Origin: a virus
DNA: 64,000 nt
IMG/VR virus record: IMGVR_UViG_3300009499_000148
Location: 42,060-106,059 of that record
Reading direction: 5' to 3' (one strand)
Part shown: in pieces, positions 9,697 through 51,865 of the stretch
Numbering within the stretch: position 1 is the first letter of the stretch
Layout of the letters: every line of letters starts with the position of its first letter
Notes under the pieces: generated by a model
Told to the model about the DNA's origin: nothing
The model's database searches: none
What the model saw: the letters and a program-made list of their open reading frames with translations, nothing else
Translations under genes and position numbers: made by a program

Positions 9697-10790
9697 GATT
9701 GTGCTCGTTTTAATGCAGTGATGATTTTCTGACGTGCTAAATCAACATCATCGTACGACCATACAATAATAACATTATATCCCATTTTTTCAAGCTCTAA
9801 AACCCTTCTTCTATCTACATCCCACTTTTCTGATGCAGAGTACCCGAATCCTTTGACGATATCATCTGGCTTAAAGCGTAAAGGAGTTGCATGAACATGG
9901 TCGCCATAAAATTCAACAATGACTTTTTTTTCTTCATTGAGCTCATCGACGATTTTGCTTTTAACATGTTGCTCTGGTACAAACCCTAGCTCGTCCATTC
10001 CGATTAAGCTTCGCATTTTTTGATGAAGCTTTGAGAGACGACATCCTGAACGGGACGTCTTTAAAAAGGCCTCAAGCTTTTCTGGATTATCTGCAAAATA
10101 CTGTTTCATTTTGGCAGATATCTTCGCACGCTTTTCTGGTTTAGAGTTCGCTACCCTAGTCGCATCAGCATGATGTTTCTTTTTTTCGACATCAGAGTAT
10201 GCTGCATTCACTGATGCTACTCTTTTTTCTCTAACATCAGGGCGATTTTGCGCTTCTTTTTGTGCATTGGAGCGCTTCTCTTTCATCTCTGGCGTTGCCA
10301 TCATTTCTATCATTTTTTTATGATAGTCTTCATTTAACCATAACAACTTAATTCTATTGCCGACTTTTTCTCGTCTAGTCGGGTCGTCGATATACACCTG
10401 TTTTTGTGCATCACTTCGTCGTTTTTTTACATCTGGACGAGCATTAGCTTCATCAATTGTGCGACGAAACTCATCAGAATTGTAGTACGCCTGTCGAGAA
10501 GCTCTCTTCTCAGGATTAGCATGTTGTTTTATGGCTGATAAGCTACGTTGCTTTCTAACCTCTGGCTGTGATGCATACGTTTTTGTAGCAATTCGTCTAC
10601 GTTCTCTTGATGCTGGGTCGTGGTTTTTAATATGAATCGCTAGACCGTTGCTCGTCTTGAACAGCCTATCACAGATAGGGCACTTAACATCGATGTTCTG
10701 CATTGCATGCACATGCTTCATGTGAATGCGGAGCCCCTTTAAAGAAGAAAACTCTCTATTACATTTTTCACAGCACAGATTGGAGGACAT
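9693..10790 (-). mobile_element. Homing endonuclease: two C2H2 fingers + 17-aa repeats + DUF559-like nuclease
   Basis: CEKC..H..H, CPIC..H..H; VDE..IVEFYGDHVH; GYNVIIVW. Confidence 0.8.
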
Positions 10791-11667: not shown

Positions 11668-12386
11668 CACTTTAAGAACCCTCTTGCTCTGACCAAATTG
11701 ACTGTCGCAAGCTGTTTTCTCTCTGCCCAATCCCTATCATCAACAGAACAACTCCTGATGCGATACAGATAACACACATCTGGGATGTATTTTCTTACCT
11801 TCGCAACCGTCAATAGTGGCAACATGAGAGATTGATCGTATCCCCTTTGAAACCACACACTCTTGTTATCCTTGAAGTTATCATCAGATATAGAGTTCAA
11901 CAGACGAGCGTCGAACGTTCTGAGATGTGATGAGCACCACGGCCACTGATATGGATTAACGTTCTGTGGCATCTCCCTTGAGATGTTTATGTCATTGATG
12001 TCCCACCGGTGTGCTGTCCATGCCACGGTATCGGGCTGTGAGTGTGCATCCTTCACCAACCTGACGGTCTCAGTGTTGCAGAGCTGGTCATCGCCGTCAA
12101 TGATTGCGATTATGTTTCTGTCTGCATCATTGTTGGCGATGATTGTACGTGATGCATGAATGATGTTATAAAGAGCATACATCCTGCTTGACCCAAGAAC
12201 GACAGCAATCCTACCATCAGACGCCATGGCCTCCTTTAGAGCATCTCTCGTGTCGTCAGTCGAACAATCGTCTATGAATAACGCAGACCAATCTGCGTCA
12301 GATTGCGCCTTCAACGATTGCACCAGGTCGTGGATGTTCGGAGCAGCATTATAGCATGGAATGATGAACGTTAACATATGTTTCAT
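11667..12386 (-). CDS. Glycosyltransferase family 2
   Basis: IIPCYN, IDDCSTD, IDGDD. Confidence 0.9.
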   Translation of the reverse strand: MKHMLTFIIPCYNAAPNIHDLVQSLKAQSDADWSALFIDDCSTDDTRDALKEAMASDGRIAVVLGSSRMYALYNIIHASRTIIANNDADRNIIAIIDGDDQLCNTETVRLVKDAHSQPDTVAWTAHRWDINDINISREMPQNVNPYQWPWCSSHLRTFDARLLNSISDDNFKDNKSVWFQRGYDQSLMLPLLTVAKVRKYIPDVCYLYRIRSCSVDDRDWAERKQLATVNLVRARGFLK

Positions 12387-12390
12387 GATA

Positions 12391-12663
12391 TCATACATCA
12401 TCTGATGTGAATTGAACAGGGTGTGCCGTGTCATCATTCGGTCCATAAAACACCCACGAAGTTCTCCACGCACGGGGGTCAGAAAACTCAACAATGTTAC
12501 CGTCGGCTATTAAAAATACAAACCGTCTTACGTGCTTTTGAAGCACTCCTGCGTTGGTGTTGACATCGACCAATAACAGAATAGACAATTCATAATTGCT
12601 ACGTGAATCCATGAATCCCGTGTAGACGAACAACGTTCCAACTTCAAACACTGATGTGCTCAT
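12391..12663 (-). CDS. PGTL-family small protein (array 1)
   Basis: VGTLFVY ... DPRAW. Confidence 0.6.
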   Translation of the reverse strand: MSTSVFEVGTLFVYTGFMDSRSNYELSILLLVDVNTNAGVLQKHVRRFVFLIADGNIVEFSDPRAWRTSWVFYGPNDDTAHPVQFTSDDV

Positions 12664-12962
12664 TCTTTGCATCTCTTCATCACATAAGACTTATAATCGT
12701 ATAACGTCATCTCATCATGCCCAGGCTCATGAACAGTCCAGTTGATGATGTTGTACAGCCACGCAACCGGTTCTGGCAAATCATCATGATAATCTGGTTC
12801 TCCACCGCCATTTGACCAATCAATGACATCTAAAAACCGATGATGACCATCTATTTCACCTACATAGAGACGATACATTGTTCTCATGCCAAGCCAACGT
12901 TCTGCTGACATGCTATCATCAACAATCATAATGAACAGCGTTCCTGGCACATACTCATTCAT
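12660..12962 (-). CDS. PGTL-family small protein (array 1)
   Basis: PGTLFIM ... EPVAW. Confidence 0.65.
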   Translation of the reverse strand: MNEYVPGTLFIMIVDDSMSAERWLGMRTMYRLYVGEIDGHHRFLDVIDWSNGGGEPDYHDDLPEPVAWLYNIINWTVHEPGHDEMTLYDYKSYVMKRCKE

Positions 12963-13228
12963 ACATCACTGTTTATGACAAAAAGACTGGTACATTCACC
13001 GTTTAACGGACTGACAAGCCTCCAGTTCTTCGCGTTCCAACTACGTGGGTTGTCAAGCTCAAAAACATCACCAAAAGAAGACAGAAAAAACATAGCGTTA
13101 TCATTAACACTGACGAGAATAAATCTCTGCTTACACTTAGCAGTACATGAGCAGTAAAATAATGTTCCTGGAATGAATTGCTCTGCATCATCTAGAAATA
13201 AGTTTTTAAAGTTTTTCATTTGACTCAA
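12959..13228 (-). CDS. PGTL-family small protein (array 1)
   Basis: PGTLFYC ... NPRSW. Confidence 0.65.
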   Translation of the reverse strand: MSQMKNFKNLFLDDAEQFIPGTLFYCSCTAKCKQRFILVSVNDNAMFFLSSFGDVFELDNPRSWNAKNWRLVSPLNGECTSLFVINSDV

Positions 13229-13484
13229 CTGGACCCAAGAATGTCGCTACTCCATCTGGAGAGACGATAAGCCACCCATTTGACCACATACCCACCCACA
13301 TGTGTGGATTTACGACTGTTTCAAACATGACTGCACCGTTGTCATGTTTGCTATGTGAATGACTTAAAAAACGATACCACATTAAATTATCAGATTTAAT
13401 TTCAAGGCTAACGAATAGACGAACCTCAACCTCCCATAAATTCTGCTTTATTAACAGACAACCGGGATAGATGTTATTGCTCAT
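13206..13484 (-). CDS. PGTL-family small protein (array 1)
   Basis: PGCLLIK ... NPHMW. Confidence 0.65.
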   Translation of the reverse strand: MSNNIYPGCLLIKQNLWEVEVRLFVSLEIKSDNLMWYRFLSHSHSKHDNGAVMFETVVNPHMWVGMWSNGWLIVSPDGVATFLGPVESNEKL

Positions 13485-13493
13485 ACCATCGCT

Positions 13494-13763
13494 CTATTTC
13501 GAAAACACCACAAGTTCATCTGAACATGATGAAAGCACATACCATATGCCGGGCCACCAGCGAGGATGAATGTAATCATGCAGGTCGCATGTCGTGGCAC
13601 CTGAGTCATAAACGAACGTTCTTAAAAAGAGATAACGTCCATCAGACAGACTCGAAACAAAGAGAGCAGTGATATGCGATGCATATTGATGCGTCATATC
13701 GTCCATTTTTCTAATCAACAGCATACCTGGAGTAAGCGTCTGTATCATAGCATCAGTGACCAT
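13494..13763 (-). CDS. PGTL-family small protein (array 1)
   Basis: PGMLLIR ... HPRWW. Confidence 0.65.
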   Translation of the reverse strand: MVTDAMIQTLTPGMLLIRKMDDMTHQYASHITALFVSSLSDGRYLFLRTFVYDSGATTCDLHDYIHPRWWPGIWYVLSSCSDELVVFSK

Positions 13764-14079
13764 CTACGTCTCCCAATATCAGTTCATTGGTTGAACCGAG
13801 AAAAACGACCTTCGTTTCAGGTGCAAACACAGGATTCCATAACGACACAACCTCGATTGATTCAACGTCGTGTGCACCGCTGGGTCTAACGCAGACATCC
13901 ACCTCTAAGAACACGTACACATCACCAAATGGATGCTCATTGTCACGAATGCGATTCACCAACAATCGATACACTGTGCCTTGTCTCACATTCCGTTTGT
14001 TCCAAATCAGCAACGTTCCCAGAGGGATATTCACGTTTGACAGAAACACATGTTCTCTCTTAAAAGCGGACATAATCAT
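13753..14079 (-). CDS. PGTL-family small protein (array 1)
   Basis: LGTLLIW ... YVFL ... WNP. Confidence 0.6.
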   Translation of the reverse strand: MIMSAFKREHVFLSNVNIPLGTLLIWNKRNVRQGTVYRLLVNRIRDNEHPFGDVYVFLEVDVCVRPSGAHDVESIEVVSLWNPVFAPETKVVFLGSTNELILGDVDGH

Positions 14080-14320
14080 TCAACCTAACAGGGTATGACT
14101 CCCCAACATTGATGAATGAAACATTTTTTTTGGATATCCAAAGATGAGGAGCATCGTAGCATGCTAAATAAGAAACGCCGTTAAACGTCTCTAAAAACTC
14201 ATACTTGTTTTCAACAAACAAATCACCCATGACAACTCGTCGAATCAACAACAGAATCATGTTTGGTATGTCTTCAGATTGAGGTTCTACAAAAAACAGC
14301 GTCCCTGGCAACCACTCCAT
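14060..14320 (-). CDS. PGTL-family small protein (array 1)
   Basis: PGTLFFV ... APHLW. Confidence 0.65.
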   Translation of the reverse strand: MEWLPGTLFFVEPQSEDIPNMILLLIRRVVMGDLFVENKYEFLETFNGVSYLACYDAPHLWISKKNVSFINVGESYPVRLNDYVRF

Positions 14321-14327
14321 ACTGATG

Positions 14328-14357
14328 ATTATAGCACGACTTTAACATCCATTACAA
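14328..14357 (-). promoter_or_regulatory. Sigma70-like promoter (TTGTAA-18-TATAAT, extended TGn)
   Basis: -10 ends 7 nt before the ATG at 14320. Confidence 0.55.
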
Positions 14358-14622
14358 CGCTGTAGTATGCATCGTTGTACTCAGTCAAAGGCCTCTCTAC
14401 ATCATCCGGCTGTATGTAGCACCATGAACGTGAGTGCCAGTCTATCGGTGACGACTCAAATAGCTCACCATCGCCATCGAGAAACACGTATGACGAAGAG
14501 CTGCCAGGTGATTGTCGTATCAGAAGCAACGCTGCATGGCGGCGAGCCAACACAGAACGGAAATCTTTCCTAAAGAACAGCGTCCCTGGCTTAAAAAACT
14601 CATTCACAGACGTCTGCATCAA
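14329..14622 (-). CDS. PGTL-family small protein (array 1)
   Basis: PGTLFFR ... SPIDW. Confidence 0.65.
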   Translation of the reverse strand: MMQTSVNEFFKPGTLFFRKDFRSVLARRHAALLLIRQSPGSSSSYVFLDGDGELFESSPIDWHSRSWCYIQPDDVERPLTEYNDAYYSVVMDVKVVL

Positions 14623-22099: not shown

Positions 22100-22781
22100 T
22101 CACCAGAGCACTTCAAGCTCTCCTTTCATGACACGAGCTAAAGTTGCTTTCTTTCCTGTGATATGGTCATTCACAACATCATCTCGTTCTCTGTAAGTCC
22201 GACGCTTATCGCCGCGGGCTCCACAACCCACCATTTGTTTTCTATCAGAACTTAACTGTTGTGAAAATGATGTATCATGAATTTCTTTAAGACGTCTTTC
22301 AAGCTCATTCCATGCATTTGCTCTATTTTGTGCTTGTGAACGCTCGTTTTCAGATCTAACTTGTATTCCAGTCGGACGGTGTGTTAATCTACATGCAGTT
22401 GATGTTTTATTTCTGTTTTGGCCGCCCTTACCGCTTCCTCTCATAAAAGCTTCATCAACATCACTTGGATTAAGTTTAAATGTGCTTTTCGCACCGTCTT
22501 TAATAACAGCAACCGTGACAGTTGATGTTTGCACTCTATCTCTCTTTTCAGTCGGCGGAATTCTTTGCCATCTATGGCCGCCTGTTTCATTCTGAAATGA
22601 TGCATATGCACCATCGCCCTTCACTTTAAGAATGATTTGCCCATCATGCTCAAGTCTTTCAATGACGCTAAAGACGCCTCCGAGAACAAAACTTTTCATA
22701 CATCGCTGCCATATCCTGCGCTAATAATTTTGCATCTTGGCCGCCTTCTGCCGCCCTAATTTCAACCGCTATGATATCCAT
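22100..22781 (-). CDS. RF1-type peptide chain release factor lacking domain 1, expressed by +1 frameshift (join 22781..22671, 22669..22100; 226 aa)
   Basis: Frame 0 MDIIAVEIRAAEGGQDAKLLAQDMAAMYEKFCSRRRL* with RBS AGGGAG; +1 frame has GGHRWQRIPPTE (PxT), GSGKGGQNRNK, ERSQ..N, RTY. Confidence 0.9.
22667..22681 (-). promoter_or_regulatory. prfB-type +1 frameshift cassette with UAG: GGAGG CGT CTT TAG C
   Basis: Internal SD, 3-nt spacer, CTT slippery codon, stop, C; same geometry as prfB AGGGGG TAT CTT TGA C. Confidence 0.9.
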
Positions 22782-23056
22782 GTTATCTCCCTGTGTCAAT
22801 GGAACATGTCCCATTGACTCGTCGTATCACTCTAATGCATTGATTATCTGTAGATGATAATCACATAGTCATAAAAATCGATGACTTGGAGTGTGTCAGG
22901 TGAAACAGAAGCTAAAATACGGGTGGGTCTTCATCTGAAGATGAGAGCGCAATATTCTTTGCATTAACTTGCTTATCTTGTTCAAGTTCATCATACGCTT
23001 TCATCATTAATACAATTTAAGTATAAAGTACGGTAAATAACACTACTGAAAAAAAA

Positions 23057-23348
23057 TGGAGCTGCCGGCGTTTGCAAGCCGGGTCCAAAAGACTTAGAAG
23101 CGATGTTCATTCACAGGTTTGGTGGGCTAAGCCCACGTTCCGTTGAAACAGATATGTGTCATAGCATTAACCCAAGCTAGACGGGTCTTTGCTTCGTTTA
23201 TCGGGTGTGCAAAGAGACCCGATGAATCACGCCGCGAGGCGTAGTTCAGATTCGAAATCGTTGCCGATTATCAATGTTGTCTTCTTAAGGGAAAAGACGG
23301 CCCACCTGCACATCGTATCATCATCCTCTGTCGAAACTTATCAGCCCC
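23057..23348 (-). ncRNA. ssrA: tmRNA; tag (A)GNDFESELRLAA* at 23265..23227
   Basis: 5' GGGGCTGA..TTCGAC, 3' T-arm plus CAGCTCCA with G3:U70; ATAATC before the resume codon; LAA-TGA. Confidence 0.93.
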
Positions 23349-28892: not shown

Positions 28893-29798
28893 ATGAAAAC
28901 ACTCAAAGAAACGCATCAAAAAAAGCTAGCAATCCTGACAGAGCAGTTGAACAATAATCCAGATATCCTTCGAGAGGCAATCGACCAAAAGCAAATCGAT
29001 GATATACAACGCGCTGTTGAAAAATTGACTAGGCTGTTTTCTGCTCCTGAGTTTGAAGAGCTACAATCAATGAGAGCAGGACTCTCAAGGGCTTATGAGA
29101 ATCTGACTGACCTGTTGGCTGCTAACAGAATGACACGTTGGATGAAGCTCGGCAAGGAGCTCAAAGATGTTGGAACATTCACGACGGGTGTGATGGCATT
29201 TTTGCGACAGCTCCCACAGATAGCAATGATGATAACGAACTCTGTGAATGCTGGTGGAAACGTGAATAGAGATGAACCGATTGCACATATTTTAAGTGGA
29301 GACCAGGGCACACTCGGTAAGCTGTCATCAATCATTGTTAAGTCTCTTAGGCCAGCATCATTCTTTGGACAAAAACAGCTTCCATACGTTGATATGGAGC
29401 AGATTGCATTTGAAGTACTCGGACTGTCACTAAATCAGATTGATAAATTGAAGGAGCTTTCAACGCAATCACGTGTTGTTAAGAAAACACTCAATCCAGA
29501 GCTATTCAAATCGATTGATGATGCACTAAAGAGTCTAGGTCAGCCCTCCAAACCCGATGAAGCGAGTGAGCAGGGTCAAGAAAGCACAGTAACAAAACAA
29601 AAGCTACCCACGGTCGCTGTTGTCAAGCAAGACTTTCCTGTCATGTTTAGAGCGGCGGTCGCGAGCGCCTTTCCTGAGAGGGAGAAGGATGACTATGGTC
29701 ATGTCAAGATAGGAACACGTGAAGCTGTCGCAAGGGACCTCTTCATAAAGAACATCATTGAGTGGTTAAAAGAGCACGGTCTTATCGAGACAAAGTGA
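28893..29798 (+). CDS. Hypothetical helical protein
   Basis: Long counter-oriented ORF; TACTTA motif upstream. Confidence 0.65.
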   Translation: MKTLKETHQKKLAILTEQLNNNPDILREAIDQKQIDDIQRAVEKLTRLFSAPEFEELQSMRAGLSRAYENLTDLLAANRMTRWMKLGKELKDVGTFTTGVMAFLRQLPQIAMMITNSVNAGGNVNRDEPIAHILSGDQGTLGKLSSIIVKSLRPASFFGQKQLPYVDMEQIAFEVLGLSLNQIDKLKELSTQSRVVKKTLNPELFKSIDDALKSLGQPSKPDEASEQGQESTVTKQKLPTVAVVKQDFPVMFRAAVASAFPEREKDDYGHVKIGTREAVARDLFIKNIIEWLKEHGLIETK

Positions 29799-31064
29799 TG
29801 CTCCATCAAATGATTTCATGATGCTCGTTGCGTAATGAATTGCAGAACCGATGATTATTGCAGATGATTCATCCTCTAGAATGCCATCAAGCAATGAGAT
29901 GTCGTAACCGCTTATCTTTTGACGTTGAACGACCCCGTATTTAAGCATCGAACGAATCACCTTCAGCCCGATGTCTAGGTCATGCATCATCTTACTACCC
30001 AACGACCCAGCATCAGACACACGTATCACGACTGACGCACCCGTCAATGACCTGACGCGTTTGTCAAGTATCATTCGTAGCGCAGGAATCTGTTCATCGA
30101 TGCGTCGTTGAATGAGATTTTGTAGATGTGGTTTAATACCGTTTGTGCTTGAGCTTGAAATGATTGTTGTTGAGCCAGTGCATGTCACATTTTGGACCGT
30201 TGGAAGCTCATCATACTTGATTTGTGATATGACGTCACCCTTTAGCGATGATACAACATCACAGCCCGCAACCATCGCAACATCAATGAGCACATTTGCT
30301 GTCTCAAGCCCAAACTCAACGACGACTGGGACGACGTTCAGTGTTTTACGTGCATAATTGACGTTGAGCGTTGATATGACATCACGGCTGAACCCCCTAG
30401 CCATGATGACCATCGGTCTCTTAAGCTCATGACTACGTTGCAACATGTGGTCAATCTCTGACACATTCTCAATCGTGCCGTCAATCAGCGCTAGCTTAAC
30501 ATCAGATGCGAACCATCGTCCGTTTTTAAGAAATGATGCATTTGCACCGATGTTGAACATATGACCCATCAATAGTTCAACCGTGTTCGTCCCTGTCGTT
30601 GATGGTTCTATGAATATCTTACAATCACTTCCTGCCAACGCTATTGCCTCTTCAAGCATTCCAGCAACATTTGGCACGGTGCTTCTTAAGCGTTCTTTAA
30701 GAGCGACAGATGTCGTTGAACATGAAAATTCATCAATCATATGAAGCAATTCATCATATGATTTTATGATGCTAGCAGTCGAAAGCTCTGACGTGATGCT
30801 GTTCTTTAATAGCCTAATGAGATGCTTGCTTGATGTAGGAGCGACAATCTCACTTTTTTTACATGCATCAATGATGATTGAGCGAATGATGCTCTGTGAT
30901 TCAGGAGCACGACTTAGCACGCTCAACACAGCGTATGCATCATTCATAACGTCTATCGAGCCATCTGGCATTCGCATGACAGTGAGGCCACCGTGTGTCA
31001 TCGCTTCAAGCTCATTAACGACGATTGATAACGCTGATTTAATCTGTTCCTTGTCAGACAGCAT
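29766..31064 (-). CDS. Divergent GroEL/Cpn60-like chaperonin
   Basis: Apical-domain match IDGTIENVSEI..RPMVIMARGFS.DV..TL.VN; RVRSL.G. Confidence 0.75.
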   Translation of the reverse strand: MLSDKEQIKSALSIVVNELEAMTHGGLTVMRMPDGSIDVMNDAYAVLSVLSRAPESQSIIRSIIIDACKKSEIVAPTSSKHLIRLLKNSITSELSTASIIKSYDELLHMIDEFSCSTTSVALKERLRSTVPNVAGMLEEAIALAGSDCKIFIEPSTTGTNTVELLMGHMFNIGANASFLKNGRWFASDVKLALIDGTIENVSEIDHMLQRSHELKRPMVIMARGFSRDVISTLNVNYARKTLNVVPVVVEFGLETANVLIDVAMVAGCDVVSSLKGDVISQIKYDELPTVQNVTCTGSTTIISSSSTNGIKPHLQNLIQRRIDEQIPALRMILDKRVRSLTGASVVIRVSDAGSLGSKMMHDLDIGLKVIRSMLKYGVVQRQKISGYDISLLDGILEDESSAIIIGSAIHYATSIMKSFDGASLCLDKTVLF

Positions 31065-31076
31065 GATAAATCATAA

Positions 31077-31148
31077 CGCGCCCAATGGGATTTGAACCCA
31101 TGACGTAGCAATTTAGAATTGCGTGTTCTACCGCTGAACTATAGGCGC
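31077..31148 (-). tRNA. Amber suppressor tRNA (anticodon CTA)
   Basis: GCGCCTA/TGGGCGC acceptor, GTTC/GAAC D-stem, GCAA-TT CTA AA-TTGC, ATGGG TTCAAAT CCCAT T-arm. Confidence 0.85.
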
Positions 31149-31492
31149 TAAGCAAACGAATTTCCACAACCACACGTCGTGGATGCATATGGATTAATGA
31201 ACTTGAATCCAGTTCCTGATAGACCCATGATGTAATCAATCATCACTCCCTCTAGATGCATCGCAGATACTGGGTCGATATACACGGTGATTCCATCATG
31301 CGTTGATACAATGTCATCATCGTTTTTGTTTGAAAAATCAAGAACATACTCAAACCCAGCACAACCGCCTCCTCTGATTCCCACACGTAATCCATCACCG
31401 ACTACGTTCGGTTCTAGCATGAATTCTTTTATTGCAATGATAGCCTTCTGCGTGATTGTGATTATCTCATTGCTGTTTTCGCTTTCTTGCAC
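31148..31492 (-). CDS. iscA: IscA/HesB Fe-S cluster carrier
   Basis: GGGCAGFEY, CGCGNSF; probable GTG start. Confidence 0.9.
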   Translation of the reverse strand: MQESENSNEIITITQKAIIAIKEFMLEPNVVGDGLRVGIRGGGCAGFEYVLDFSNKNDDDIVSTHDGITVYIDPVSAMHLEGVMIDYIMGLSGTGFKFINPYASTTCGCGNSFA

Positions 31493-31796
31493 GTGCCTCT
31501 TCCTTATACAATCGATTGAGTTGTTCTTGTCTGTCAAGCTGTATCGCAGTGAGACGGCGCTTGCTGATATCGTGTCTCTTTTCGGCTGCAACGACAACGT
31601 TAGACATACGCTTAAGCATTGCGTCTATTGCTCGTATAACGTTTATTAGGACAAGCAGAGCACTCTTCTCAAAGCCCCTTGACTGTGCAACATCCTTATA
31701 CATCGCCTTGAGTGTGCCATCAGCATCAAGCGACGACTGCATGCCATCTAACAGCTTACGAAGTGCGTTAGCACGTTCTTGAAATGATGCACTCAC
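31467..31796 (-). CDS. Hypothetical coiled-coil protein
   Basis: ORF. Confidence 0.55.
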   Translation of the reverse strand: MSASFQERANALRKLLDGMQSSLDADGTLKAMYKDVAQSRGFEKSALLVLINVIRAIDAMLKRMSNVVVAAEKRHDISKRRLTAIQLDRQEQLNRLYKEEARARKRKQQ

Positions 31797-35770: not shown

Positions 35771-36125
35771 TATAGCTCCAGATGCCCGTTCATTAGGGCA
35801 ACGTCATTCCGGAGGCCCTAACAAAGGATAAATATGTTGTTATCGTTAAGCATTGCTATCACATTATATTACTACACACGTAGCATAAAATACACTACTA
35901 TCTGTGGTGATGTCGCATCCTTAATAAAAGACGCTCAGCGAACATCGTTAGCAAGCGTTGGTCTGATAATGTTAAACGGCGCCAGATGAGTTGTAGTGTA
36001 TCATCGATGTCAGCGATTTCATACCGCTTAAGCTCAGATGCGTTGTCATGTCTATTAAGTAGAGAAATCACGCGACGTATCAATTTTTTTGAGATGATGA
36101 TATCTCTGTTAAGCATCTATTTGTT

Positions 36126-36887
36126 CTATACATCGATAAGAAGTGCTTTGTTAAAGTCTGGGTTGATATCTGACGGCCAGTAGCCTCGAGGGTTGCACAC
36201 AACACGTGTAGACTTGCTTGTATCATAATGCTCAATGCGATAATCAAATGAGTCATGAGTGTGTCCGTGTATCCAAAGCTTCGGTCCATTTGTACGGATG
36301 AATTCATCCATGTCAGTCAGATAAAACGACGTAAGCTCACTGTGCTTAAATCTCTCTGCAACACTCATTTTTGATGGAAGATGATGCGTGATTAATATGT
36401 CAGATGCTGATGCTTCACTGTTAAAGAACGCTGTTGCACGTGCATTTTCATCATACACCCAATCTCTGATGCACTTGATTATGCGAAAATCATTCATGAA
36501 AAATTCGTACTGTTGGTTTCGTACATGCCACGGAAACCACATCGTGGCACCAAGAAACCTCTGTCCCTTCACTGTGATTGTTCCACAATCAAGCCAGTGA
36601 AGGTTTGAATTCTGTCTCATCGCTTCATGCGATAGCGCCACTATCGTATCTCTGTCAGATGCATAATATTCATGATTACCATGAACCCATATGACGTCAG
36701 AGTGCTCATACCTTTTGCATAGCCTAGACATGACCTCAATGATTTGAGATTTTGTGCATATATCACCTGCTAGCACCAAAACATCGACGCCATCTGGGTC
36801 GAGCGTGCTGATAAAGGATGAGATGCTTGATGTTTTATGGTCGTCATCAAATTCTAGATGAATATCACTCATGATAGCTAATTTCAT
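36126..36887 (-). CDS. Calcineurin-like metallophosphoesterase
   Basis: SDIH, AGD, GNHE, THH, HGHTH. Confidence 0.92.
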   Translation of the reverse strand: MKLAIMSDIHLEFDDDHKTSSISSFISTLDPDGVDVLVLAGDICTKSQIIEVMSRLCKRYEHSDVIWVHGNHEYYASDRDTIVALSHEAMRQNSNLHWLDCGTITVKGQRFLGATMWFPWHVRNQQYEFFMNDFRIIKCIRDWVYDENARATAFFNSEASASDILITHHLPSKMSVAERFKHSELTSFYLTDMDEFIRTNGPKLWIHGHTHDSFDYRIEHYDTSKSTRVVCNPRGYWPSDINPDFNKALLIDV

Positions 36888-37161
36888 GATTCACACTCTA
36901 CATACGCATCTATACTATAGAGCATTAAATTTTCGCATACAAAAATGCTCTGACCAATCAATAGTTTTGCACCAGATAACGTCTTATTATTAATAACGCT
37001 TCTTGCACACGAAACAACACTACATGTCATGTCTAACAATGATATAGCGCATCTATCTTGTAAACGATTTTTACATTGCCCGCTACAGACATCAACACAA
37101 CGAGAGCTTATTTGATGAAAATGATACATGTCATGCAACACTATAAGTGAACCCTTGGCTA

Positions 37162-37950
37162 TCATCGAAAGATGTCCACGTATGGAGCCAACATATTTTG
37201 TATGATTGGTCTCTCTAGCCAATGTCCGTCTGCATCTGCGATTGAGTTTAAAAATGAGCTTCTCACCCACTTATAACGCTCTAGCACTGAATCATCATTT
37301 TCTACCTTGATGTAAAGACCCTCCATCGTATCGTTCTTGTCAGTTTGACGAAGCGCAACGTCATATGCAACACCTGCATTCTGTGCCTGTGTGTTGAGAT
37401 TATCTTTCCAGCGACCCGTCTTGTAGTATGACATCGTGATGAGTTGTGTGATGTCATCTAGGCACGTGATGATGCTATCCTGAATGATGTTAACAGAAAC
37501 GATTGGAGAACCATGAAGTAGTTCAAGCCGTCTCTGTGTTGAAATAAATGTGTTTGTTTCTTTGTCAAAGACATCAAACGCTAAAAAATAATGTGGTAAG
37601 AGGTCATAGAACACAGTGTGTTTTGCGAATAACCACTCACCGTAAATGATGTATCTGTCTCCAATGATGTTTAACAGCGTGGCTTCATGAACTGCAGCCC
37701 ATTGTTTAAAAAGGTCCCAGTGCTTTTCTCGCGGGCCACCTGTAAGGTAATGCCCCCTACTTTGCAGCAGCAACGAACCATCATGCGAGAACGATATCCC
37801 AGCATTCGCGCCGTCGACCTTTTCTTCTATAATTACCCGTTTACCAAATAGTTCAGAGACACGAACCTGTGATAAGTCTTCATCACCGCTCTGTAGTCTT
37901 GAGCCCTCAAGATGAGGGGTCCGAACAAACTTGATGATTTCGATGCTCAT
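37162..37950 (-). CDS. ATP-dependent RNA ligase family protein
   Basis: EEKVDGAN, YGEW, FDV, EGLYIK, RYK. Confidence 0.85.
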   Translation of the reverse strand: MSIEIIKFVRTPHLEGSRLQSGDEDLSQVRVSELFGKRVIIEEKVDGANAGISFSHDGSLLLQSRGHYLTGGPREKHWDLFKQWAAVHEATLLNIIGDRYIIYGEWLFAKHTVFYDLLPHYFLAFDVFDKETNTFISTQRRLELLHGSPIVSVNIIQDSIITCLDDITQLITMSYYKTGRWKDNLNTQAQNAGVAYDVALRQTDKNDTMEGLYIKVENDDSVLERYKWVRSSFLNSIADADGHWLERPIIQNMLAPYVDIFR

Positions 37951-38366
37951 TTATCTTCATTATCACACATATCGACGTTGCTGTGCAATGCTGTGAGCTT
38001 ATCATCTTTTTTTTGTCTTTTTATGAATAACTCAAGCCTCAGCGCTGAGCTCTTTGAAGGCATTTTTCTGCTATCACAGAGAGTTATCGGCCCTCTTCCT
38101 CGTGTGTATTTTGCACCCTTTCCATCCTGATGGGCTTTCACTCTCTTTGCTACGTCAGTTGTGATGCCAGTGTAAAGAGAACCATCGCCACATCGAACAA
38201 TATAGACGAACCACATCTTTTTTCCACCGTATTTCGGTGTCAGGTCTCCATCAGATGTATAGATTCCAACATCAACACATGAAAGAAACAATTCATGTGG
38301 TGTCATCTTACGAAGACGCTTCATTAATTTTTGATGAGCAAGTGCGTTTTGTTTCGTGTACGTCAT
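37947..38366 (-). CDS. GIY-YIG nuclease (YazA/UPF0213-like)
   Basis: VYIVRCGDGSLYTGITTD..R...H..G.GAKYT. Confidence 0.85.
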   Translation of the reverse strand: MTYTKQNALAHQKLMKRLRKMTPHELFLSCVDVGIYTSDGDLTPKYGGKKMWFVYIVRCGDGSLYTGITTDVAKRVKAHQDGKGAKYTRGRGPITLCDSRKMPSKSSALRLELFIKRQKKDDKLTALHSNVDMCDNEDK

Positions 38367-38663
38367 CTAGATAACTGCTTTACCGTAGATAGACGCAGGT
38401 CCAATCCACCCGTTTATGCGACCCTTATTATTCGCTATCTGAAATCTTGTACCGTCAATCGCTTTAACAAGATGCAAATACTGCCTTCCCGCAACCTTAC
38501 ACAGCACTACGTCACCGACAGCGAGCTCTGTGATATTGACTGGATGAACGACAACTGTCTGACCGTCCTCAACACGACCTGCCATTGACCTTCCCCTCGG
38601 AGTGATGACGACGCTTTCACCACCCTGAAGCTTTTCAATCGCCATTGATGCCCAGCCCGTCAT
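38367..38663 (-). CDS. S24/S26 peptidase-like small protein
   Basis: GRSM...GDVVL..LH. Confidence 0.6.
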   Translation of the reverse strand: MTGWASMAIEKLQGGESVVITPRGRSMAGRVEDGQTVVVHPVNITELAVGDVVLCKVAGRQYLHLVKAIDGTRFQIANNKGRINGWIGPASIYGKAVI

Positions 38664-39259
38664 TTTGACATACCCGCGCCGAAGCGTGAAAATCTGCTGA
38701 TGACGATGTTTTCACCCGTCTTTTGTACGAGATCTGTCAAAAGTGTGCCAATCTTTTTGGATTGGTCCTTCACCCACTGTTGGTCAATAAGACATATCTG
38801 CGAATACAGTTTCTCCATCTGTCCATCGACAATCTTTGACAACATCGACTCAGGTTTACCTGAGATGACAGCCTTCGACAGCAACGCGGCCCTTTCACGC
38901 TCAACTACATCTGATGGAATTGAGTTTCTATCAACATATTGCGGGTCTAATGCAGCAATCTGAAGCATCACCTCATGCATAAAATCCTTGAAATCATCGC
39001 TTCTAGCGACAAAATCAGTCTCACAATCGACCTGAAGTAGAACACCTATTCTACCCTCACCGTGAATATACGACCCTACACGACCCTCAGATAACTTTCG
39101 TTCTCTCTTTGCCTGTGCTCCAATCGAACCAAGCTCTCTTAGGAGCAAAAGTGCGTTTCCTTGGTCATATCCTGATTTTTCTAGAACGTCCTTACACAGA
39201 CTCATGCTCACGCCGGTCATTTCACGAAGCGCTTTTATTTGTTCAATCTTTGTGCTCAT
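38660..39259 (-). CDS. tsf: Elongation factor Ts (short form)
   Basis: LREMTG.S...CK..L, EG..GSYIH, CETDFVA, RFSRF. Confidence 0.95.
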   Translation of the reverse strand: MSTKIEQIKALREMTGVSMSLCKDVLEKSGYDQGNALLLLRELGSIGAQAKRERKLSEGRVGSYIHGEGRIGVLLQVDCETDFVARSDDFKDFMHEVMLQIAALDPQYVDRNSIPSDVVERERAALLSKAVISGKPESMLSKIVDGQMEKLYSQICLIDQQWVKDQSKKIGTLLTDLVQKTGENIVISRFSRFGAGMSK

Positions 39260-39267
39260 TTTTTATC

Positions 39268-39714
39268 CTATAGCTGTGAAGCAATCGCAGACCTCAATCT
39301 AAAGCTACTCCTATCGAATGGTATCTGCGCCGCGACGTATCCATTACCTGCAAGGTCTGCGACCATATGCTCAGCATGTCGCACATTCAATGACCAAACG
39401 ATGACTGGAACATTTTTCCATGACAGTGAAATGTCATTCTGACACAGAAGTTTGACAGCATCACTTCCGGTCTTTCCGTCTTTATCGAGAGGCCAGTTTC
39501 CGGGTATGTCGACGATGATACCGCCGCCGATAGGGTCATTCGACCCAAGGTCGTGGTCAAGTATGATTAAAGAGATATCATCAGCAACATTATCACGTAA
39601 TGCAGCAACGAATGAGCTAACATCCTGACACCAGATTACATTAGTGTCAGGAAACGCATCTTTCAACCACTTGATGCGAAAATCAACATCTTCAAGCACT
39701 AATATCGATTTCAT
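39268..39714 (-). CDS. Cyclic-phosphate-processing receiver-like domain
   Basis: LED...R; LDHDLG; G.D; S.N. Confidence 0.7.
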   Translation of the reverse strand: MKSILVLEDVDFRIKWLKDAFPDTNVIWCQDVSSFVAALRDNVADDISLIILDHDLGSNDPIGGGIIVDIPGNWPLDKDGKTGSDAVKLLCQNDISLSWKNVPVIVWSLNVRHAEHMVADLAGNGYVAAQIPFDRSSFRLRSAIASQL

Positions 39715-40784
39715 CGAAATTCAAGCCTATTCTGTATGCCACATGACTGCTTCATTGCAGACACAAGAAGCTGGTCAATGACAGCATCATCTAAAGTATA
39801 CAACGGTTGTTTTTTATCATTCACAACGTGTTGCATTCCCATGATGTGTGTTGCTATTGCGGCGTCGGCGTCAGACAACGCTGCATCACTGAATTCATTC
39901 CACCATGTGATTGTCTGTCCATCGCTGCATTTTCCAACGATTTTTTCTGTTGAGCCATGTTCTGTTGAATGTCTTACAACACTCATTCGTTCCGTTTTTC
40001 CTGCATTTAAAAACATGACGTCGATGATTTCATAATCATTCGTTCTGTCAATCATACGTCCCGTGATGATTGTGCCGTCTGAAGAGTATGCTCGCAATGA
40101 CTGAAGAGAACGAAATGGAGCTGTCTTACATGCGTATGCAAACTGATGCATCAACGTTACACCATTCTCAAACGCAATCGTCCCTATCTCCCATGAATCA
40201 ACGCTGCTGTCGACACGTAGTCCTTCACTGTTCTCGTGCTCTGCAAGTGGTGCTAGCACCCGATGAGCAAATGCTGATGTCGGTCTGTGTTGTCTTCCGA
40301 TGTATGTTCTTAGCTGTGCTATTGCGTGGTAATCGTATGACCGACAATCATTCTGAACTAGAAACGGTCGTGATACAATACCCGATGCATACACTTTTTC
40401 TTTGAACTGCTCTAATGGAAGATAAGGCCACTGCTCAATCACGCCGACACTCACACCGTATTTTCGAGCTGACTCAACTAACCGTGGGTCATCTAGAGGC
40501 GTCTCACACAAGATTGGAATCCCATGATGCATCGTTGAGCCGATGACTGCAGACGACGCCGATGCATTAACACAGACCAACAGATAGTCTGGATTTTGTG
40601 CCACTAATTCTTCACGTGTCTTAAATGCCTTTATTCCTGTGGCATCACTAAAGCGTTGTGCTGTTGATTGTGAACGTGTCGTAAATCCAACGACGTCGAT
40701 AGAGCCAAGCTTTTGTAATTTTTGCAGAATGGGAGCGTAAACGTTCGTCATTCTTTTCCCTGCACCGACTAGTCCTATACGCAT
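39711..40784 (-). CDS. Gfo/Idh/MocA oxidoreductase
   Basis: IGLVGAG; CETP. Confidence 0.8.
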   Translation of the reverse strand: MRIGLVGAGKRMTNVYAPILQKLQKLGSIDVVGFTTRSQSTAQRFSDATGIKAFKTREELVAQNPDYLLVCVNASASSAVIGSTMHHGIPILCETPLDDPRLVESARKYGVSVGVIEQWPYLPLEQFKEKVYASGIVSRPFLVQNDCRSYDYHAIAQLRTYIGRQHRPTSAFAHRVLAPLAEHENSEGLRVDSSVDSWEIGTIAFENGVTLMHQFAYACKTAPFRSLQSLRAYSSDGTIITGRMIDRTNDYEIIDVMFLNAGKTERMSVVRHSTEHGSTEKIVGKCSDGQTITWWNEFSDAALSDADAAIATHIMGMQHVVNDKKQPLYTLDDAVIDQLLVSAMKQSCGIQNRLEFR

Positions 40785-41479
40785 TTTAGAACCTCATTCT
40801 CATATAACTCAACCTGCTCTTTATGAACGTTGATGTCAGACAACGACCTTTCATACTGATGACGTCTTAAAAATGAATAGATGATTCTTATAGACCCATC
40901 CTGATGTGAATCTGGGATGACGCCATGCAACATGCTTGTGTTGAATATCACGAATGAATCATCTGATGATAGATAGTCCTTTCTCGGCATGCCACTGCAA
41001 CCATTCATATCATCACTAAGAGAATCAAAGTTCCTTCGATGAGAGCCGACAATCATCTTAAGCTTTCTCTCTGGCTGTCGTCCCAACGTTGGGTAATAGA
41101 TGAGCTTATGTGCAGGAGGAAAATTGCCAACAGGCTTTAGACCCGTATGGATGTATGTGTCCCTGTGCCAATCCATGTAGCTCGGCCCTGGTCTAGAGCA
41201 TCTTATCTGTGTATGCGTTAACACCATGTCTGGTCCGAGAAGTTCATCTAACAGTTTAGGGATATTGTTGATGCGGAGCGTCCCTAAAATGACTGCATCG
41301 TATGAGTGTGCATCAGGCCTCAGGTCAAGCGTGTTCTGGTACTTAGACTCCCATGTGTATGGATGCTTTAGAGATTGTGCTGAGTGTAGGTCTGTCAGCA
41401 GTGCTCTAAGTGGAGCACAGTCAACAAATTTTTTTTCGACGCAACCTGCAATTGCATACGTCGTCTCTAATGATGTCAT
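40775..41479 (-). CDS. 2OG-Fe(II) dioxygenase (PhyH-like)
   Basis: WHRD, GSH, HG, R. Confidence 0.75.
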   Translation of the reverse strand: MTSLETTYAIAGCVEKKFVDCAPLRALLTDLHSAQSLKHPYTWESKYQNTLDLRPDAHSYDAVILGTLRINNIPKLLDELLGPDMVLTHTQIRCSRPGPSYMDWHRDTYIHTGLKPVGNFPPAHKLIYYPTLGRQPERKLKMIVGSHRRNFDSLSDDMNGCSGMPRKDYLSSDDSFVIFNTSMLHGVIPDSHQDGSIRIIYSFLRRHQYERSLSDINVHKEQVELYENEVLKCV

Positions 41480-46394: not shown

Positions 46395-46754
46395 TCACGA
46401 GATTTTTCCATTTTCGTCTTTCAGTCGAAGGTGCGAACCGTATAGCTTAAGAGAGCCGAAGAACTCAGGCCATTTTTCGCGTGGTTTGAACCCGATTGCA
46501 ACCTCAACATCATCGATTGCATCCTCTGTCATGATAAGAAAGTCTCCGTACTTTTTAGACTTTTCAAACTGTTCGTCTGATACGATACACGTCACCTTTC
46601 TAAAGTGCTTACTCTGTACCCATTCCTGCATGACTGGGTCATCCTTGAACTTTAAAAACGTAGCAAGGCTTGTGTGTCCGATTGCATTTGCACCCAGTCC
46701 TATCGGAATAGAACTTTTGACGAGGATGTACATCTTAAGCTTCTGTTCTGACAC
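46395..46754 (-). CDS. Peptidyl-tRNA hydrolase, Pth2-like
   Basis: KMYILV..G....GH..L; RKV..V; G..P; LKL. Confidence 0.7.
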   Translation of the reverse strand: MSEQKLKMYILVKSSIPIGLGANAIGHTSLATFLKFKDDPVMQEWVQSKHFRKVTCIVSDEQFEKSKKYGDFLIMTEDAIDDVEVAIGFKPREKWPEFFGSLKLYGSHLRLKDENGKIS

Positions 46755-47030
46755 AAATGTTCCTTTATTCTTCGGTAAAAAATCCGTCCAATCATCACCC
46801 TACATCACTACCTCCAAAATAGCTCCCACTCTTTTTTATCAACCTTATCTGCGAGCTTACAATATTTTTTTAGAATCCGTGTGTATTGTCGCCCTGGATT
46901 AGTGCTTTCATTGAACCAATGCTTTGGATACCTTTTTTTGATATCTTCAAGCTTGATTTCAAGCTTATCAAGCCTTGCAAACATTGTGTTCAATCGCATA
47001 ATCTCTATTGTGCGATATTTTGCCATACAA

Positions 47031-51795: not shown

Positions 51796-51865
51796 AGCCG
51801 TGGGTATGAATTGAACATACGACCTATCGATTAATATCGATTGCTCTACACTGAGCTACCACGGC
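51796..51865 (-). ncRNA. Thr-like tRNA body with collapsed anticodon loop
   Basis: GCCGTGG/CCACGGC; ATCGAT-ATTA-ATCGAT. Confidence 0.65.

What the first reader, a model, noticed from the sequence alone, without database searches (positions are those of the whole stretch)
31077..31148. Amber suppressor tRNA(CUA) in a genome segment that uses the standard code
Seen: complete cloverleaf with a symmetric anticodon arm GCAA-TT[CTA]AA-TTGC and G73. It lies apart from the main tRNA array, and its G1 is the last base of the iscA TAG stop. No recognisable gene here needs TAG as sense, and TAG ends a minority of genes. Inference: conditional amber readthrough, or recoded genes elsewhere in the genome. 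The charged amino acid cannot be assigned by eye.
Basis: partly seen in the sequence, partly recalled or inferred. Interest (0 to 1): 0.8.

Follow-up and report, generated by a model that had tools for sequence, protein, structure and literature searches.

The report
Phage amber-suppressor tRNA with candidate target
A large uncultured phage that otherwise uses the normal genetic code carries a genuine, evolutionarily conserved tRNA that reads the UAG stop codon, and its most likely job is to read one deliberate UAG placed at the second codon of the phage's own peptidyl-tRNA-hydrolase-like gene, a pairing that recurs in many unrelated phages.

Summary
The tRNA(CUA) at 31077-31148 (minus strand) is real: ARAGORN, Rfam (63.9 bits) and a clean cloverleaf agree. 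It is not a one-off mutation. Three distant relatives (neighbouring protein 34-40% identical) carry a CUA tRNA at the same site. Twelve of 21 stem pairs show compensatory changes, and the loop keeps U33-CUA-AA in all four.

The 106 kb held (about 29% of the genome) reads as standard code, tail and baseplate genes included, so genome-wide recoding is unlikely.

A candidate target lies 15.7 kb away in the tRNA array: a PTH2-fold gene (46395-46805, minus) that opens GGAGG-5 nt-ATG-TAG. In loci I had fetched by tRNA pattern alone, 12 of 19 distinct PTH2-like genes lying near a CUA tRNA have ATG, 0-5 codons, then TAG. Only 2 of 20 without one in view do (p = 0.0008), and TAA or TGA never fills that position. 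Two public huge-phage genomes show the same pattern.

The case here is weaker than elsewhere, because a GTG start 16 codons after the TAG could bypass the gate. The inserted amino acid could not be assigned.

Earlier reports of this scan described the same pairing on other DNA. I found no paper describing it.

The parts
31077..31148 (-). Amber-suppressor tRNA gene, anticodon CUA, loop UUCUAAA, discriminator G73, no encoded CCA
   Evidence: ARAGORN; Rfam RF00005 63.9 bits; cloverleaf MFE. Orthologues sit at the same site in L098, L102 and L114, with 12 of 21 pairs compensatory and 96% of cells paired.
31148..31597 (-). IscA-like Fe-S assembly gene just upstream. Its TAG stop (31150-31148) shares its G with tRNA position 1.
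   Evidence: Pfam PF01521 63.1 bits; sequence read. L098 has the same TA|G overlap. In L114 the IscA TAG lies 45 nt upstream of the tRNA.
29766..31064 (-). GroEL-like 432-aa gene starting 12 nt after the tRNA. It is the conserved downstream neighbour used to find orthologous loci.
   Evidence: Homologues (one source names it chaperonin GroEL); synteny of AAA ATPase, IscA, tRNA(CUA), GroEL-like and an opposite-strand gene.
46395..46805 (-). PTH2-fold (peptidyl-tRNA-hydrolase-2-like) gene, the candidate client of the tRNA. SD GGAGG 46815-46811; ATG 46805-46803; TAG (codon 2) 46802-46800; 15 codons without a canonical start; GTG 46754-46752; stop TGA 46397-46395.
   Evidence: Sequence. Pfam PTH2 19.7 bits, E 0.0011, below the cut-off. 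AlphaFold pLDDT 87.8. Foldseek top 13 hits are all Pth2 structures, probability 1.0. hhalign to the amber-gated family A4: 87.8%, E 3e-6. Homologue N-termini.
22100..22781 (-). Context: short RF1-type release factor (IPPTE and GGQ motifs) made through a prfB-like +1 frameshift. GGAGG 22681-22677, CGT, CTT 22673-22671, TAG 22670-22668, C. This is a second UAG-dependent device in the same phage.
   Evidence: Sequence read; PF00472 92 bits. Family loci mostly have CTT-TGA and a few CTT-TAG, and all carry WQRIPPTE.
23054..23348 (-). Context: phage tmRNA gene
   Evidence: Rfam RF00023 51.1 bits against a gathering score of 47, found only with the permissive filters. ARAGORN missed it.

Best explanation
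This is a working amber-suppressor tRNA kept by selection in a lineage of large phages that use the standard code. It is not a mark of genome-wide recoding.

Inferred steps for the tRNA:
- It is transcribed within the IscA - tRNA - GroEL-like operon.
- RNase P and 3' processing cut it out, and the host adds CCA.
- The host probably modifies A37 to i6A, because the loop has the A36-A37-A38 determinant.
- A host synthetase charges it. The amino acid is unknown; Gln or Lys are the usual outcomes for class I CUA tRNAs.

Its most likely dedicated client is the UAG at codon 2 of the phage's PTH2-fold gene in the tRNA array (GGAGG-5 nt-AUG-UAG...). A ribosome that starts at this strong site either terminates at once through RF1 or, if the charged suppressor wins, goes on to make an N-terminally extended PTH2-like protein. 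Output of the gene would then follow the ratio of suppressor to RF1 activity.

Shown here:
- The tRNA, the conservation of its anticodon and its covariation.
- Standard code across the 106 kb held.
- The ATG-TAG context and the PTH2 fold of the gene.
- The cross-lineage link between CUA tRNAs and early-TAG PTH2-like genes.

Inferred: expression, charging, readthrough and the regulatory logic.
For: The tRNA is real. Three syntenic orthologues keep CUA, although the flanking GroEL-like protein is only 34-40% identical. Twelve of 21 pairs show compensatory changes, 96.4% of cells are paired, and U33-CUA-A37-A38 is invariant.

The code is standard. ORFs of at least 50 aa cover 94% of the 106 kb and TAG as sense gives no gain. 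The three ORF pairs joined only by a TAG are not single genes: two are separate adjacent genes and the third looks non-coding. The baseplate and giant tail ORFs are intact. The relative L114 ends 11 of 33 ORFs in TAG.

The candidate target reads GGAGG-5 nt-ATG-TAG in frame with a PTH2-fold ORF, with no canonical start in the next 15 codons. Those 15 codons resemble the called N-termini of five homologues.

Across lineages, using loci fetched by tRNA pattern only:
- 12 of 19 distinct PTH2-like genes with a CUA tRNA in view have ATG, 0-5 codons, then TAG. Only 2 of 20 without one do (Fisher p = 0.0008).
- TAA or TGA never shows that pattern.
- 6 of 10 of these ORFs pass Pfam's PTH2 cut-off.
- A purine follows the UAG in 12 of 13 cases.

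Two public genomes repeat it. LR756500 has MK-TAG and LR756501 has MS-TAG, each with CUA tRNAs 0.8-2.1 kb downstream. Bacterial homologues of the own family have neither the TAG nor a suppressor.
Against: - A GTG with a modest SD (AAAGGA) lies 16 codons after the TAG. It gives an N-terminus (MSEQKLKMYILVK) like those of the bacterial homologues and of most gene calls. The ATG-TAG could therefore be a start-stop mini-ORF, and the gate could be partial or absent.
- The tRNA lies 15.7 kb from the gene, against 0.2-3.1 kb in the other lineages.
- I could not fetch DNA of close homologues (63-78% identical), so conservation of the ATG-TAG within this subfamily is untested.
- Distant members of the own subfamily are ungated. 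Phages L288 and L289 gate a different PTH2 paralogue.
- Seven PTH2-like genes near CUA tRNAs are not gated. XacN1, which has two CUA tRNAs, has an ungated PTH2-like gene.
- No expression or charging data exist.
Confidence: 0.55

Rival explanations
1. The suppressor has no dedicated client. It gives low-level UAG readthrough across the infected cell, for example to disturb host termination, to buffer amber mutations, or as a first step toward recoding. The ATG-TAG before the PTH2-like gene is an unrelated start-stop mini-ORF, and the gene starts at the GTG.
For: XacN1's authors found no target for its two CUA tRNAs (PMC5852040), and its PTH2-like gene is ungated. Borges et al. report a suppressor tRNA in a standard-code phage as a possible precursor of recoding. 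The own gene has an alternative GTG start that matches bacterial N-termini. In this genome 7 of 11 TAG-ended genes on the coding strand have a second stop within 3 codons, against 28 of 108 for the other stops (p = 0.015).
Against: The tandem-stop signal did not replicate in the three relatives with the orthologous tRNA (2 of 14). A strong SD-ATG directly before a TAG, in frame with the one gene family that is gated in at least 14 other lineages, is unlikely by chance. Genome-wide, early-stop patterns are not enriched for TAG, so the signal is specific to this gene family.
Confidence: 0.2
2. The unseen 71% of the genome holds TAG-recoded genes, for example lysis or other late genes as in code-15 phages, and the tRNA serves them.
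For: CheckV rates the record 29% complete. Recoding in known phages can be confined to late and lysis genes. No capsid, terminase or lysis genes were identified in the held part.
Against: Structural genes that are present (baseplate wedge and ORFs of 827-1398 aa) contain no in-frame TAG. TAG is an ordinary stop here (12%) and in the relative L114 (33%). The phage encodes an RF1-type factor, not the RF2 reported in two TAG-recoded phages. No conserved gene in about 2.6 Mb of related loci shows an internal TAG that aligns consistently with one residue.
Confidence: 0.1
3. The tRNA acts without decoding. It could be an RNA-processing punctuation mark between IscA and the GroEL-like gene, where RNase P cleavage would remove IscA's stop codon and leave a non-stop mRNA. 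Or it could be a decoy for a host anticodon nuclease.
For: The stop-codon/G1 overlap is shared with L098. The phage carries tmRNA, ClpP, an RNA ligase and a phosphoesterase, which fit ribosome rescue and tRNA repair. The GroEL-like gene starts 3-16 nt after the tRNA, without an obvious SD, in all four loci.
Against: A pure processing signal would not need an invariant CUA with the A36-A37-A38 loop across four diverged copies. L114 and L102 lack the overlap. L100 has IscA (TAA stop) directly followed by the GroEL-like gene with no tRNA.
Confidence: 0.1
4. It is a neutral or decaying anticodon mutant of a sense tRNA.
For: Phage tRNA sets turn over quickly, and the discriminator differs (G in this phage, A in the three relatives).
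Against: CUA is kept in four syntenic copies with compensatory stem changes. The tRNA is not a copy of any of the phage's 23 other tRNAs.
Confidence: 0.03

Closest known systems
Orphan amber-suppressor tRNAs of standard-code jumbo phages, e.g. the two tRNA(CUA) genes of Xanthomonas phage XacN1 (PMC5852040)
   Same: A canonical class I tRNA with anticodon CUA and the loop CUCUAAA or UUCUAAA, in a large phage with many tRNAs. The genome reads in the standard code and TAG ends a minority of genes.
   Different: XacN1's authors found no target, and I found its PTH2-like gene ungated. Here a candidate target exists. The tRNA also sits outside the tRNA array, at a conserved IscA/GroEL-like site.
Suppressor tRNA(CUA) of TAG-recoded ('code 15') phages such as crAss-like, Lak, Garnet, Topaz and Agate (bioRxiv 10.1101/2021.08.26.457843; PMC13037316)
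   Same: A phage-encoded tRNA that reads UAG in a host with the standard code. Translation of certain phage genes depends on the phage's own tRNA.
   Different: Those phages have many genes with in-frame TAG, low code-11 coding density and sometimes RF2. This phage has 94% coding density in code 11, at most one gated gene in 106 kb, and an RF1-type factor.
Phage PTH2 genes of jumbo phages (PMC7824862)
   Same: A PTH2-fold gene in a jumbo phage, alongside RNA-repair and ribosome-rescue genes.
   Different: That survey mentions neither suppressor tRNAs nor an early in-frame UAG.
prfB (RF2) autoregulatory +1 frameshift at CUU-UGA-C; lambda bar minigenes and Pth (from my own knowledge)
   Same: An early or internal stop codon serves as a sensor of termination capacity. 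Very short ORFs are known to load the cell with peptidyl-tRNA that Pth must clear.
   Different: Here the proposed outcome at the stop codon is decoding by a dedicated tRNA, not a frameshift. No experiment links the phage PTH2-like gene to minigene effects.

Membership tests
Canonical elongator tRNA (Rfam RF00005) | Cloverleaf with 7/4/5/5-bp stems, U33, purine 37, G18G19, T loop UUCRANY; score above the gathering threshold | tested here: met
   63.9 bits against a threshold of 29; structure; covariation in four orthologues.
Amber-suppressor tRNA | Anticodon CUA in the canonical 7-nt loop register | tested here: met
   Loop UU-CUA-AA. CUA is invariant in the orthologues.
Amber-suppressor tRNA | Is aminoacylated and inserts an amino acid at UAG | not testable with these tools
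   A nearest-neighbour isotype classifier reached only 59% leave-one-out accuracy and gave inconsistent calls. No GlnRS/GluRS or CCA-adding enzyme is found in the 106 kb.
tRNA-Pyl (ARAGORN's label) | Atypical structure: 6-bp anticodon stem, 3-nt variable loop, small D loop without G18G19 | tested here: not met
   5-bp anticodon stem, 5-nt variable loop, D loop AGCGGUA with GG, and a standard T loop.
TAG-recoded (code 15) phage | Low coding density in code 11 that is restored when TAG is read as sense; many genes with in-frame TAG | tested here: not met
   Coverage (ORFs of at least 80 aa) is 0.898 in code 11 and 0.894 with TAG as sense. With ORFs of at least 50 aa it is 94%. This applies only to the 29% of the genome held.
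TAG-recoded (code 15) phage | TAG avoided as a stop; RF2 rather than RF1 where a factor is encoded | tested here: not met
   18 of 147 ORFs end in TAG. The encoded factor has the RF1-like P-x-T motif (IPPTE).
Suppressor tRNA plus amber-gated PTH2-like gene pair (seen here and in earlier reports of this scan; not found in papers) | PTH2-fold protein | tested here: met
   Model pLDDT 87.8; Foldseek top 13 hits are Pth2 structures, probability 1.0, TM 0.61-0.69. Pfam PTH2 is sub-threshold at 19.7 bits.
Suppressor tRNA plus amber-gated PTH2-like gene pair | ATG with an SD, then 0-5 codons, then an in-frame TAG just before the domain | tested here: met
   GGAGG-TAGTG-ATG-TAG-GGT.... TAG is codon 2, as in L056.
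Suppressor tRNA plus amber-gated PTH2-like gene pair | No alternative start between the TAG and the domain, so the gate is obligatory | tested here: not met
   GTG at codon +16, seven codons before the conserved LKMYILVK, with AAAGGA upstream. In 11 of the 13 other gated genes there is no start in between.
Suppressor tRNA plus amber-gated PTH2-like gene pair | tRNA(CUA) within a few kb of the gated gene | tested here: not met
   15.7 kb apart here, against 0.2-3.1 kb in the 11 other lineages that have a CUA tRNA in view.

The most novel reading that the evidence does not exclude
The suppressor tRNA, the UAG-gated PTH2-like hydrolase and the RF1-type factor gated by a UAG frameshift form one phage-encoded circuit that measures how fast UAG is cleared in the infected cell. 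When RF1 activity falls, ribosomes waiting at UAG either shift frame, which makes release factor, or accept the suppressor, which makes a peptidyl-tRNA hydrolase. The phage would thus repair termination and recycle dropped-off tRNAs on demand. In L207 the three parts lie within 2 kb of one another (RF at 10001-10543, tRNA(CUA) at 11686-11757, gated PTH2-like gene from about 11878).
Probability: 0.2. Interest if true: 0.85.

Novelty: new variant of a known kind. Interest (0 to 1): 0.66.

Why it matters
Suppressor tRNAs in phages that do not recode their genomes have been reported without any known target, XacN1 being one example. If their usual client is a single early UAG in a PTH2-like gene, these orphans become parts of a natural one-codon translational switch.

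That switch would tie a tRNA-recycling enzyme to the balance between suppression and termination. It would also be a ready-made orthogonal gate for synthetic biology.

There is a practical warning for annotation too. Gene callers start these genes after the TAG or miss them altogether. My own ORF tiling replaced this gene with a spurious opposite-strand ORF.

Tried and rejected
1. TAG as a sense codon genome-wide: no gain in coverage. Of the three ORF pairs joined by a TAG, two are separate adjacent genes and the third looks non-coding.
2. C-terminal readthrough extensions: the IscA extensions are short and not conserved. In-frame adjacency of the next gene is not enriched after TAG (3 of 11 against 11 of 108, p = 0.12).
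3. Backup stops after TAG: significant in this genome (p = 0.015) but not replicated in relatives, so dropped.
4. A gated gene next to the tRNA: none in this phage or in L098, L102 or L114. The candidate at G000 32368 is an artefact, because another frame holds the real gene.
5. Internal TAGs in conserved genes of related loci: only stops at alignment edges, plus a few internal TAGs (L058, L085) aligned with inconsistent residues, which I judged spurious.
6. Amino-acid identity by similarity to 798 phage tRNAs: the classifier was too weak. The D arm AGTTCAGCGGTAGAAC is generic.
7. Link between the stop codon at the RF frameshift site and suppressor tRNAs within 10 kb: none.
8. A genome-wide excess of SD-ATG-(0-8 codons)-TAG-ORF in loci that carry CUA tRNAs: none, so the signal is family-specific.
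9. XacN1 as a cultured example of the pairing: negative.
10. Close relatives in GenBank phages: none found for the GroEL-like or AAA genes.
The DNA around the closest homologues, and the 182-kb contig of a 99%-identical phage, could therefore not be read. The L114 record was not searchable.

Full report
**Observation.** ARAGORN finds 24 tRNA genes in the window, all on the minus strand. One, at 31077-31148, has anticodon CUA. Rfam's tRNA model scores it 63.9 bits, third best in the window, and the minimum-energy fold is the cloverleaf.

Reading the sequence gives:
- a 7-bp acceptor stem (G1-C72, C2-G71, G3-C70);
- D arm GUUC/GAAC with G18G19;
- a 5-bp anticodon stem with one C-U mismatch at its top;
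- loop UU-CUA-AA, a 5-nt variable loop, T loop UUCAAAU and discriminator G73. No CCA is encoded.

ARAGORN's label 'Pyl' only reflects the anticodon, because the structure is canonical. G1 is the last base of the TAG stop of an IscA-like gene (Pfam PF01521). A 432-aa GroEL-like gene starts 12 nt after the tRNA.

**The genome.** The window is the last 64 kb of a 106,059-bp IMG/VR record that CheckV rates 29% complete, so the phage is probably about 350 kb.
- ORFs of at least 50 aa tile 94% of the record in code 11. Stops are TGA 95, TAA 34 and TAG 18.
- With ORFs of at least 80 aa, reading TAG as sense does not raise coverage (0.898 against 0.894).
- The three places where a TAG joins two long frames are not interrupted genes. 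They are a pair of tandem paralogues, an S24-like peptidase followed by a GIY-YIG gene that starts at the next codon, and a low-complexity frame that looks non-coding.
- The first 40 kb holds a baseplate-wedge homologue and intact ORFs of 827-1398 aa.

The part held therefore uses the standard code, structural genes included.

**The anticodon is conserved.** The tRNA is not a copy of any of the phage's other tRNAs. Using the GroEL-like protein as an anchor, one IMG/VR scan and one metagenome scan returned 112 loci.

Three of them (L098, L102, L114) carry a CUA tRNA 3-16 nt upstream of the GroEL-like gene. Their GroEL-like identity is 34-40% and their AAA ATPase identity 62-68%. The same gene order holds: AAA ATPase, IscA, tRNA, GroEL-like, then a gene on the opposite strand.

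On the alignment of the four tRNAs, 96.4% of pair cells are standard pairs and 12 of 21 pairs show changes on both sides. No shuffle and no slid register comes close. U33-CUA-A37-A38 is invariant. The discriminator is not: G here and A in the three others.
- L100 has IscA (TAA stop) directly followed by the GroEL-like gene with no tRNA.
- More distant relatives lack both IscA and the tRNA.
- L114 ends 11 of 33 ORFs in TAG.

The homologous loci keep the suppressor anticodon, in phages for which TAG is an ordinary stop.

**What it is for: negative results.** I found no functional readthrough extension, no gated gene beside the tRNA, and no internal TAG that aligns consistently in conserved genes of about 2.6 Mb of related loci. 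In this genome 7 of 11 TAG-ended genes have a second stop within three codons (p = 0.015). The relatives do not show this (2 of 14), so I dropped it.

**What it is for: the candidate target.** Earlier reports of this scan, on other genomes, claimed that orphan CUA tRNAs pair with a PTH2-like gene that has a very early UAG. I treated this as a lead to test.

A scan of this genome for start, a few codons, TAG and then a long ORF had listed a minus-strand frame at window 46800. My ORF tiling had overwritten it with a spurious plus-strand ORF.

Read properly, the frame is GGAGG-TAGTG-ATG-TAG-GGT... followed by 134 open codons. No ATG, GTG or TTG occurs in the first 15 of them. It lies inside the tRNA array, between tRNA-Thr(CGU) and tRNA-Ser.

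Evidence that the protein is PTH2-like:
- Pfam gives a sub-threshold PTH2 match of 19.7 bits.
- An AlphaFold model built on 26 sequences has pLDDT 87.8.
- Its 13 best Foldseek matches are all Pth2 structures (MJ0051, human Bit1, AF2095, S. solfataricus Pth2), at probability 1.0.

**Independent test across lineages.** Two tRNA-pattern scans of IMG/VR, with no protein criterion, had brought in loci with CUA tRNAs.

Two small ORFs with early TAGs in these loci (L242, L289) served as seeds. With them, six-frame searches found a homologous small protein in about 25 of the 58 loci. Six of ten tested pass Pfam's PTH2 cut-off and three more hit weakly. The family matches the own family profile to profile at 87.8%, E 3e-6.

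After dereplication:

| Distinct PTH2-like genes | ATG, 0-5 codons, TAG as first upstream stop | Not gated |
|---|---|---|
| CUA tRNA in view | 12 | 7 |
| No CUA tRNA in view | 2 | 18 |

Fisher p = 0.0008. The two gated genes without a tRNA in view are in release-factor loci whose tRNA may lie outside the fetched stretch. In none of the cases where the first upstream stop is TAA or TGA is there an ATG within six codons before it.

Examples, with # for TAG: MPY#, MK#, MKL#, MT#, MH#, MAQ#, MNHT#, and M# in L056, as here. The base after the UAG is a purine in 12 of 13 cases.

Two complete public huge-phage genomes repeat the pattern. LR756500 has MK#INNHKLIIITRED with a CUA tRNA 0.8 kb downstream. 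LR756501 has MS#IYKLIVVTRQD, with a second internal TAG, and two CUA tRNAs 2.1 kb downstream. Bacterial homologues of the own subfamily (Saprospiraceae, Gilvibacter, Pyxidicoccus) have no early TAG and no suppressor.

**Limits of the case in this window.**
- A GTG 16 codons after the TAG, preceded by AAAGGA, gives MSEQKLKMYILVK. This looks like the bacterial N-termini and like most gene calls for the close homologues.
- Five close homologues were called with longer N-termini that resemble the 15 codons behind the TAG (WSDALP, FLPKDK, LPKNE). This hints that the stretch is coding, but without their DNA I cannot test it.
- The tRNA is 15.7 kb from the gene.
- Distant IMG/VR members of the own subfamily are ungated. 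Phages L288 and L289 gate the other paralogue.
- XacN1 has two CUA tRNAs but an ungated PTH2-like gene, so the pairing is common but not universal.

**Mechanism proposed.** The tRNA is made from the IscA/GroEL-like operon and completed by host enzymes. The A36-A37-A38 loop is the known determinant for i6A37 and suits a U-starting codon (from my own knowledge).

Ribosomes that start at the strong SD-AUG of the PTH2-like gene meet UAG at once. RF1 ends the attempt, whereas the charged suppressor lets the full protein be made. Output would thus follow the suppressor-to-RF1 ratio.

The same phage encodes a short RF1-type factor that needs a prfB-like +1 shift at GGAGG-CGT-CTT-TAG-C. It also encodes a tmRNA, ClpP, EF-Ts, an RNA ligase and a phosphoesterase. 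The gate therefore sits within a translation-maintenance kit. Whether these parts form one circuit is speculation.

The amino acid inserted could not be assigned.

**Comparison with what is known.** Phage CUA tRNAs are well known in TAG-recoded phages (10.1101/2021.08.26.457843, PMC13037316). They have also been noted, without a target, in standard-code jumbo phages (PMC5852040). PTH2 genes in jumbo phages have been catalogued (PMC7824862).

Five full-text searches found no paper that links the two or describes the early UAG. The library does not hold most subscription journals. Other agents of this scan reported the same pairing on other genomes. I re-derived it here from my own data.

**Verdict.** The tRNA is real and conserved. 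The genome is standard-code as far as it can be seen. A specific, plausible but unproven target has been identified.

Noticed in passing
window 23054-23348 (-): A phage tmRNA gene, Rfam RF00023 at 51.1 bits (gathering score 47). ARAGORN and the default Rfam gathering scan both missed it; it appeared only with the permissive filters. Many distant relatives carry a tmRNA about 2 kb downstream of their GroEL-like gene.
   Followed up: partly
window 22667-22681 (-), gene 22100-22781: A short RF1-type release factor that needs a +1 frameshift at GGAGG-CGT-CTT-TAG-C. In 40 related IMG/VR loci the site is mostly CTT-TGA and sometimes CTT-TAG, yet the codon-reading motif WQRIPPTE is the same in all. 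The stop at the switch therefore does not track the factor's apparent specificity.
   Followed up: partly
window 31148-31150; L098:4015-4017: The IscA TAG stop shares its G with tRNA position 1, in this phage and in a 40%-identity relative. RNase P cleavage would leave the IscA mRNA without a stop codon, a possible non-stop substrate for the phage's own tmRNA.
   Followed up: no
window 36126-39714 (-): An RNA-repair and translation cluster: calcineurin-like phosphoesterase, RNA ligase (PF09414), GIY-YIG, S24-like peptidase, EF-Ts and a cyclic-phosphate-processing receiver domain. Five of the eleven TAG-ended coding-strand genes lie in window 35898-41479.
   Followed up: no
L207:10001-12219: The frameshift-type release factor, a tRNA(CUA) (11686-11757) and an amber-gated PTH2-like gene (MK-TAG, from about 11878) lie within 2.2 kb in one IMG/VR phage.
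   Followed up: partly
L262:4859-4975, L266:2609-2725, L312 (LR756501) about 4094-4096: Some gated PTH2-like genes have a second in-frame TAG 35-40 codons in. In those phages the gene needs two suppression events.
   Followed up: no
window 51796-51865 (-): ARAGORN reports a tRNA with an undetermined two-base anticodon ('tt'), while Rfam scores it 56.8 bits. It may have an odd anticodon loop.
   Followed up: no
window 12660-14622 (-): A run of small paralogous genes of about 90-108 aa. Two of them are joined in frame by a single TAG (13494-13496).
   Followed up: partly
L308 (XacN1 AP018399) 36047-36205; L309:1501-1806: XacN1's two suppressor tRNAs are followed by a 104-aa ORF that is not PTH2-like. 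Its PTH2-like domain, at 244287-244592, lies in a 283-aa open frame with no early TAG.
   Followed up: partly
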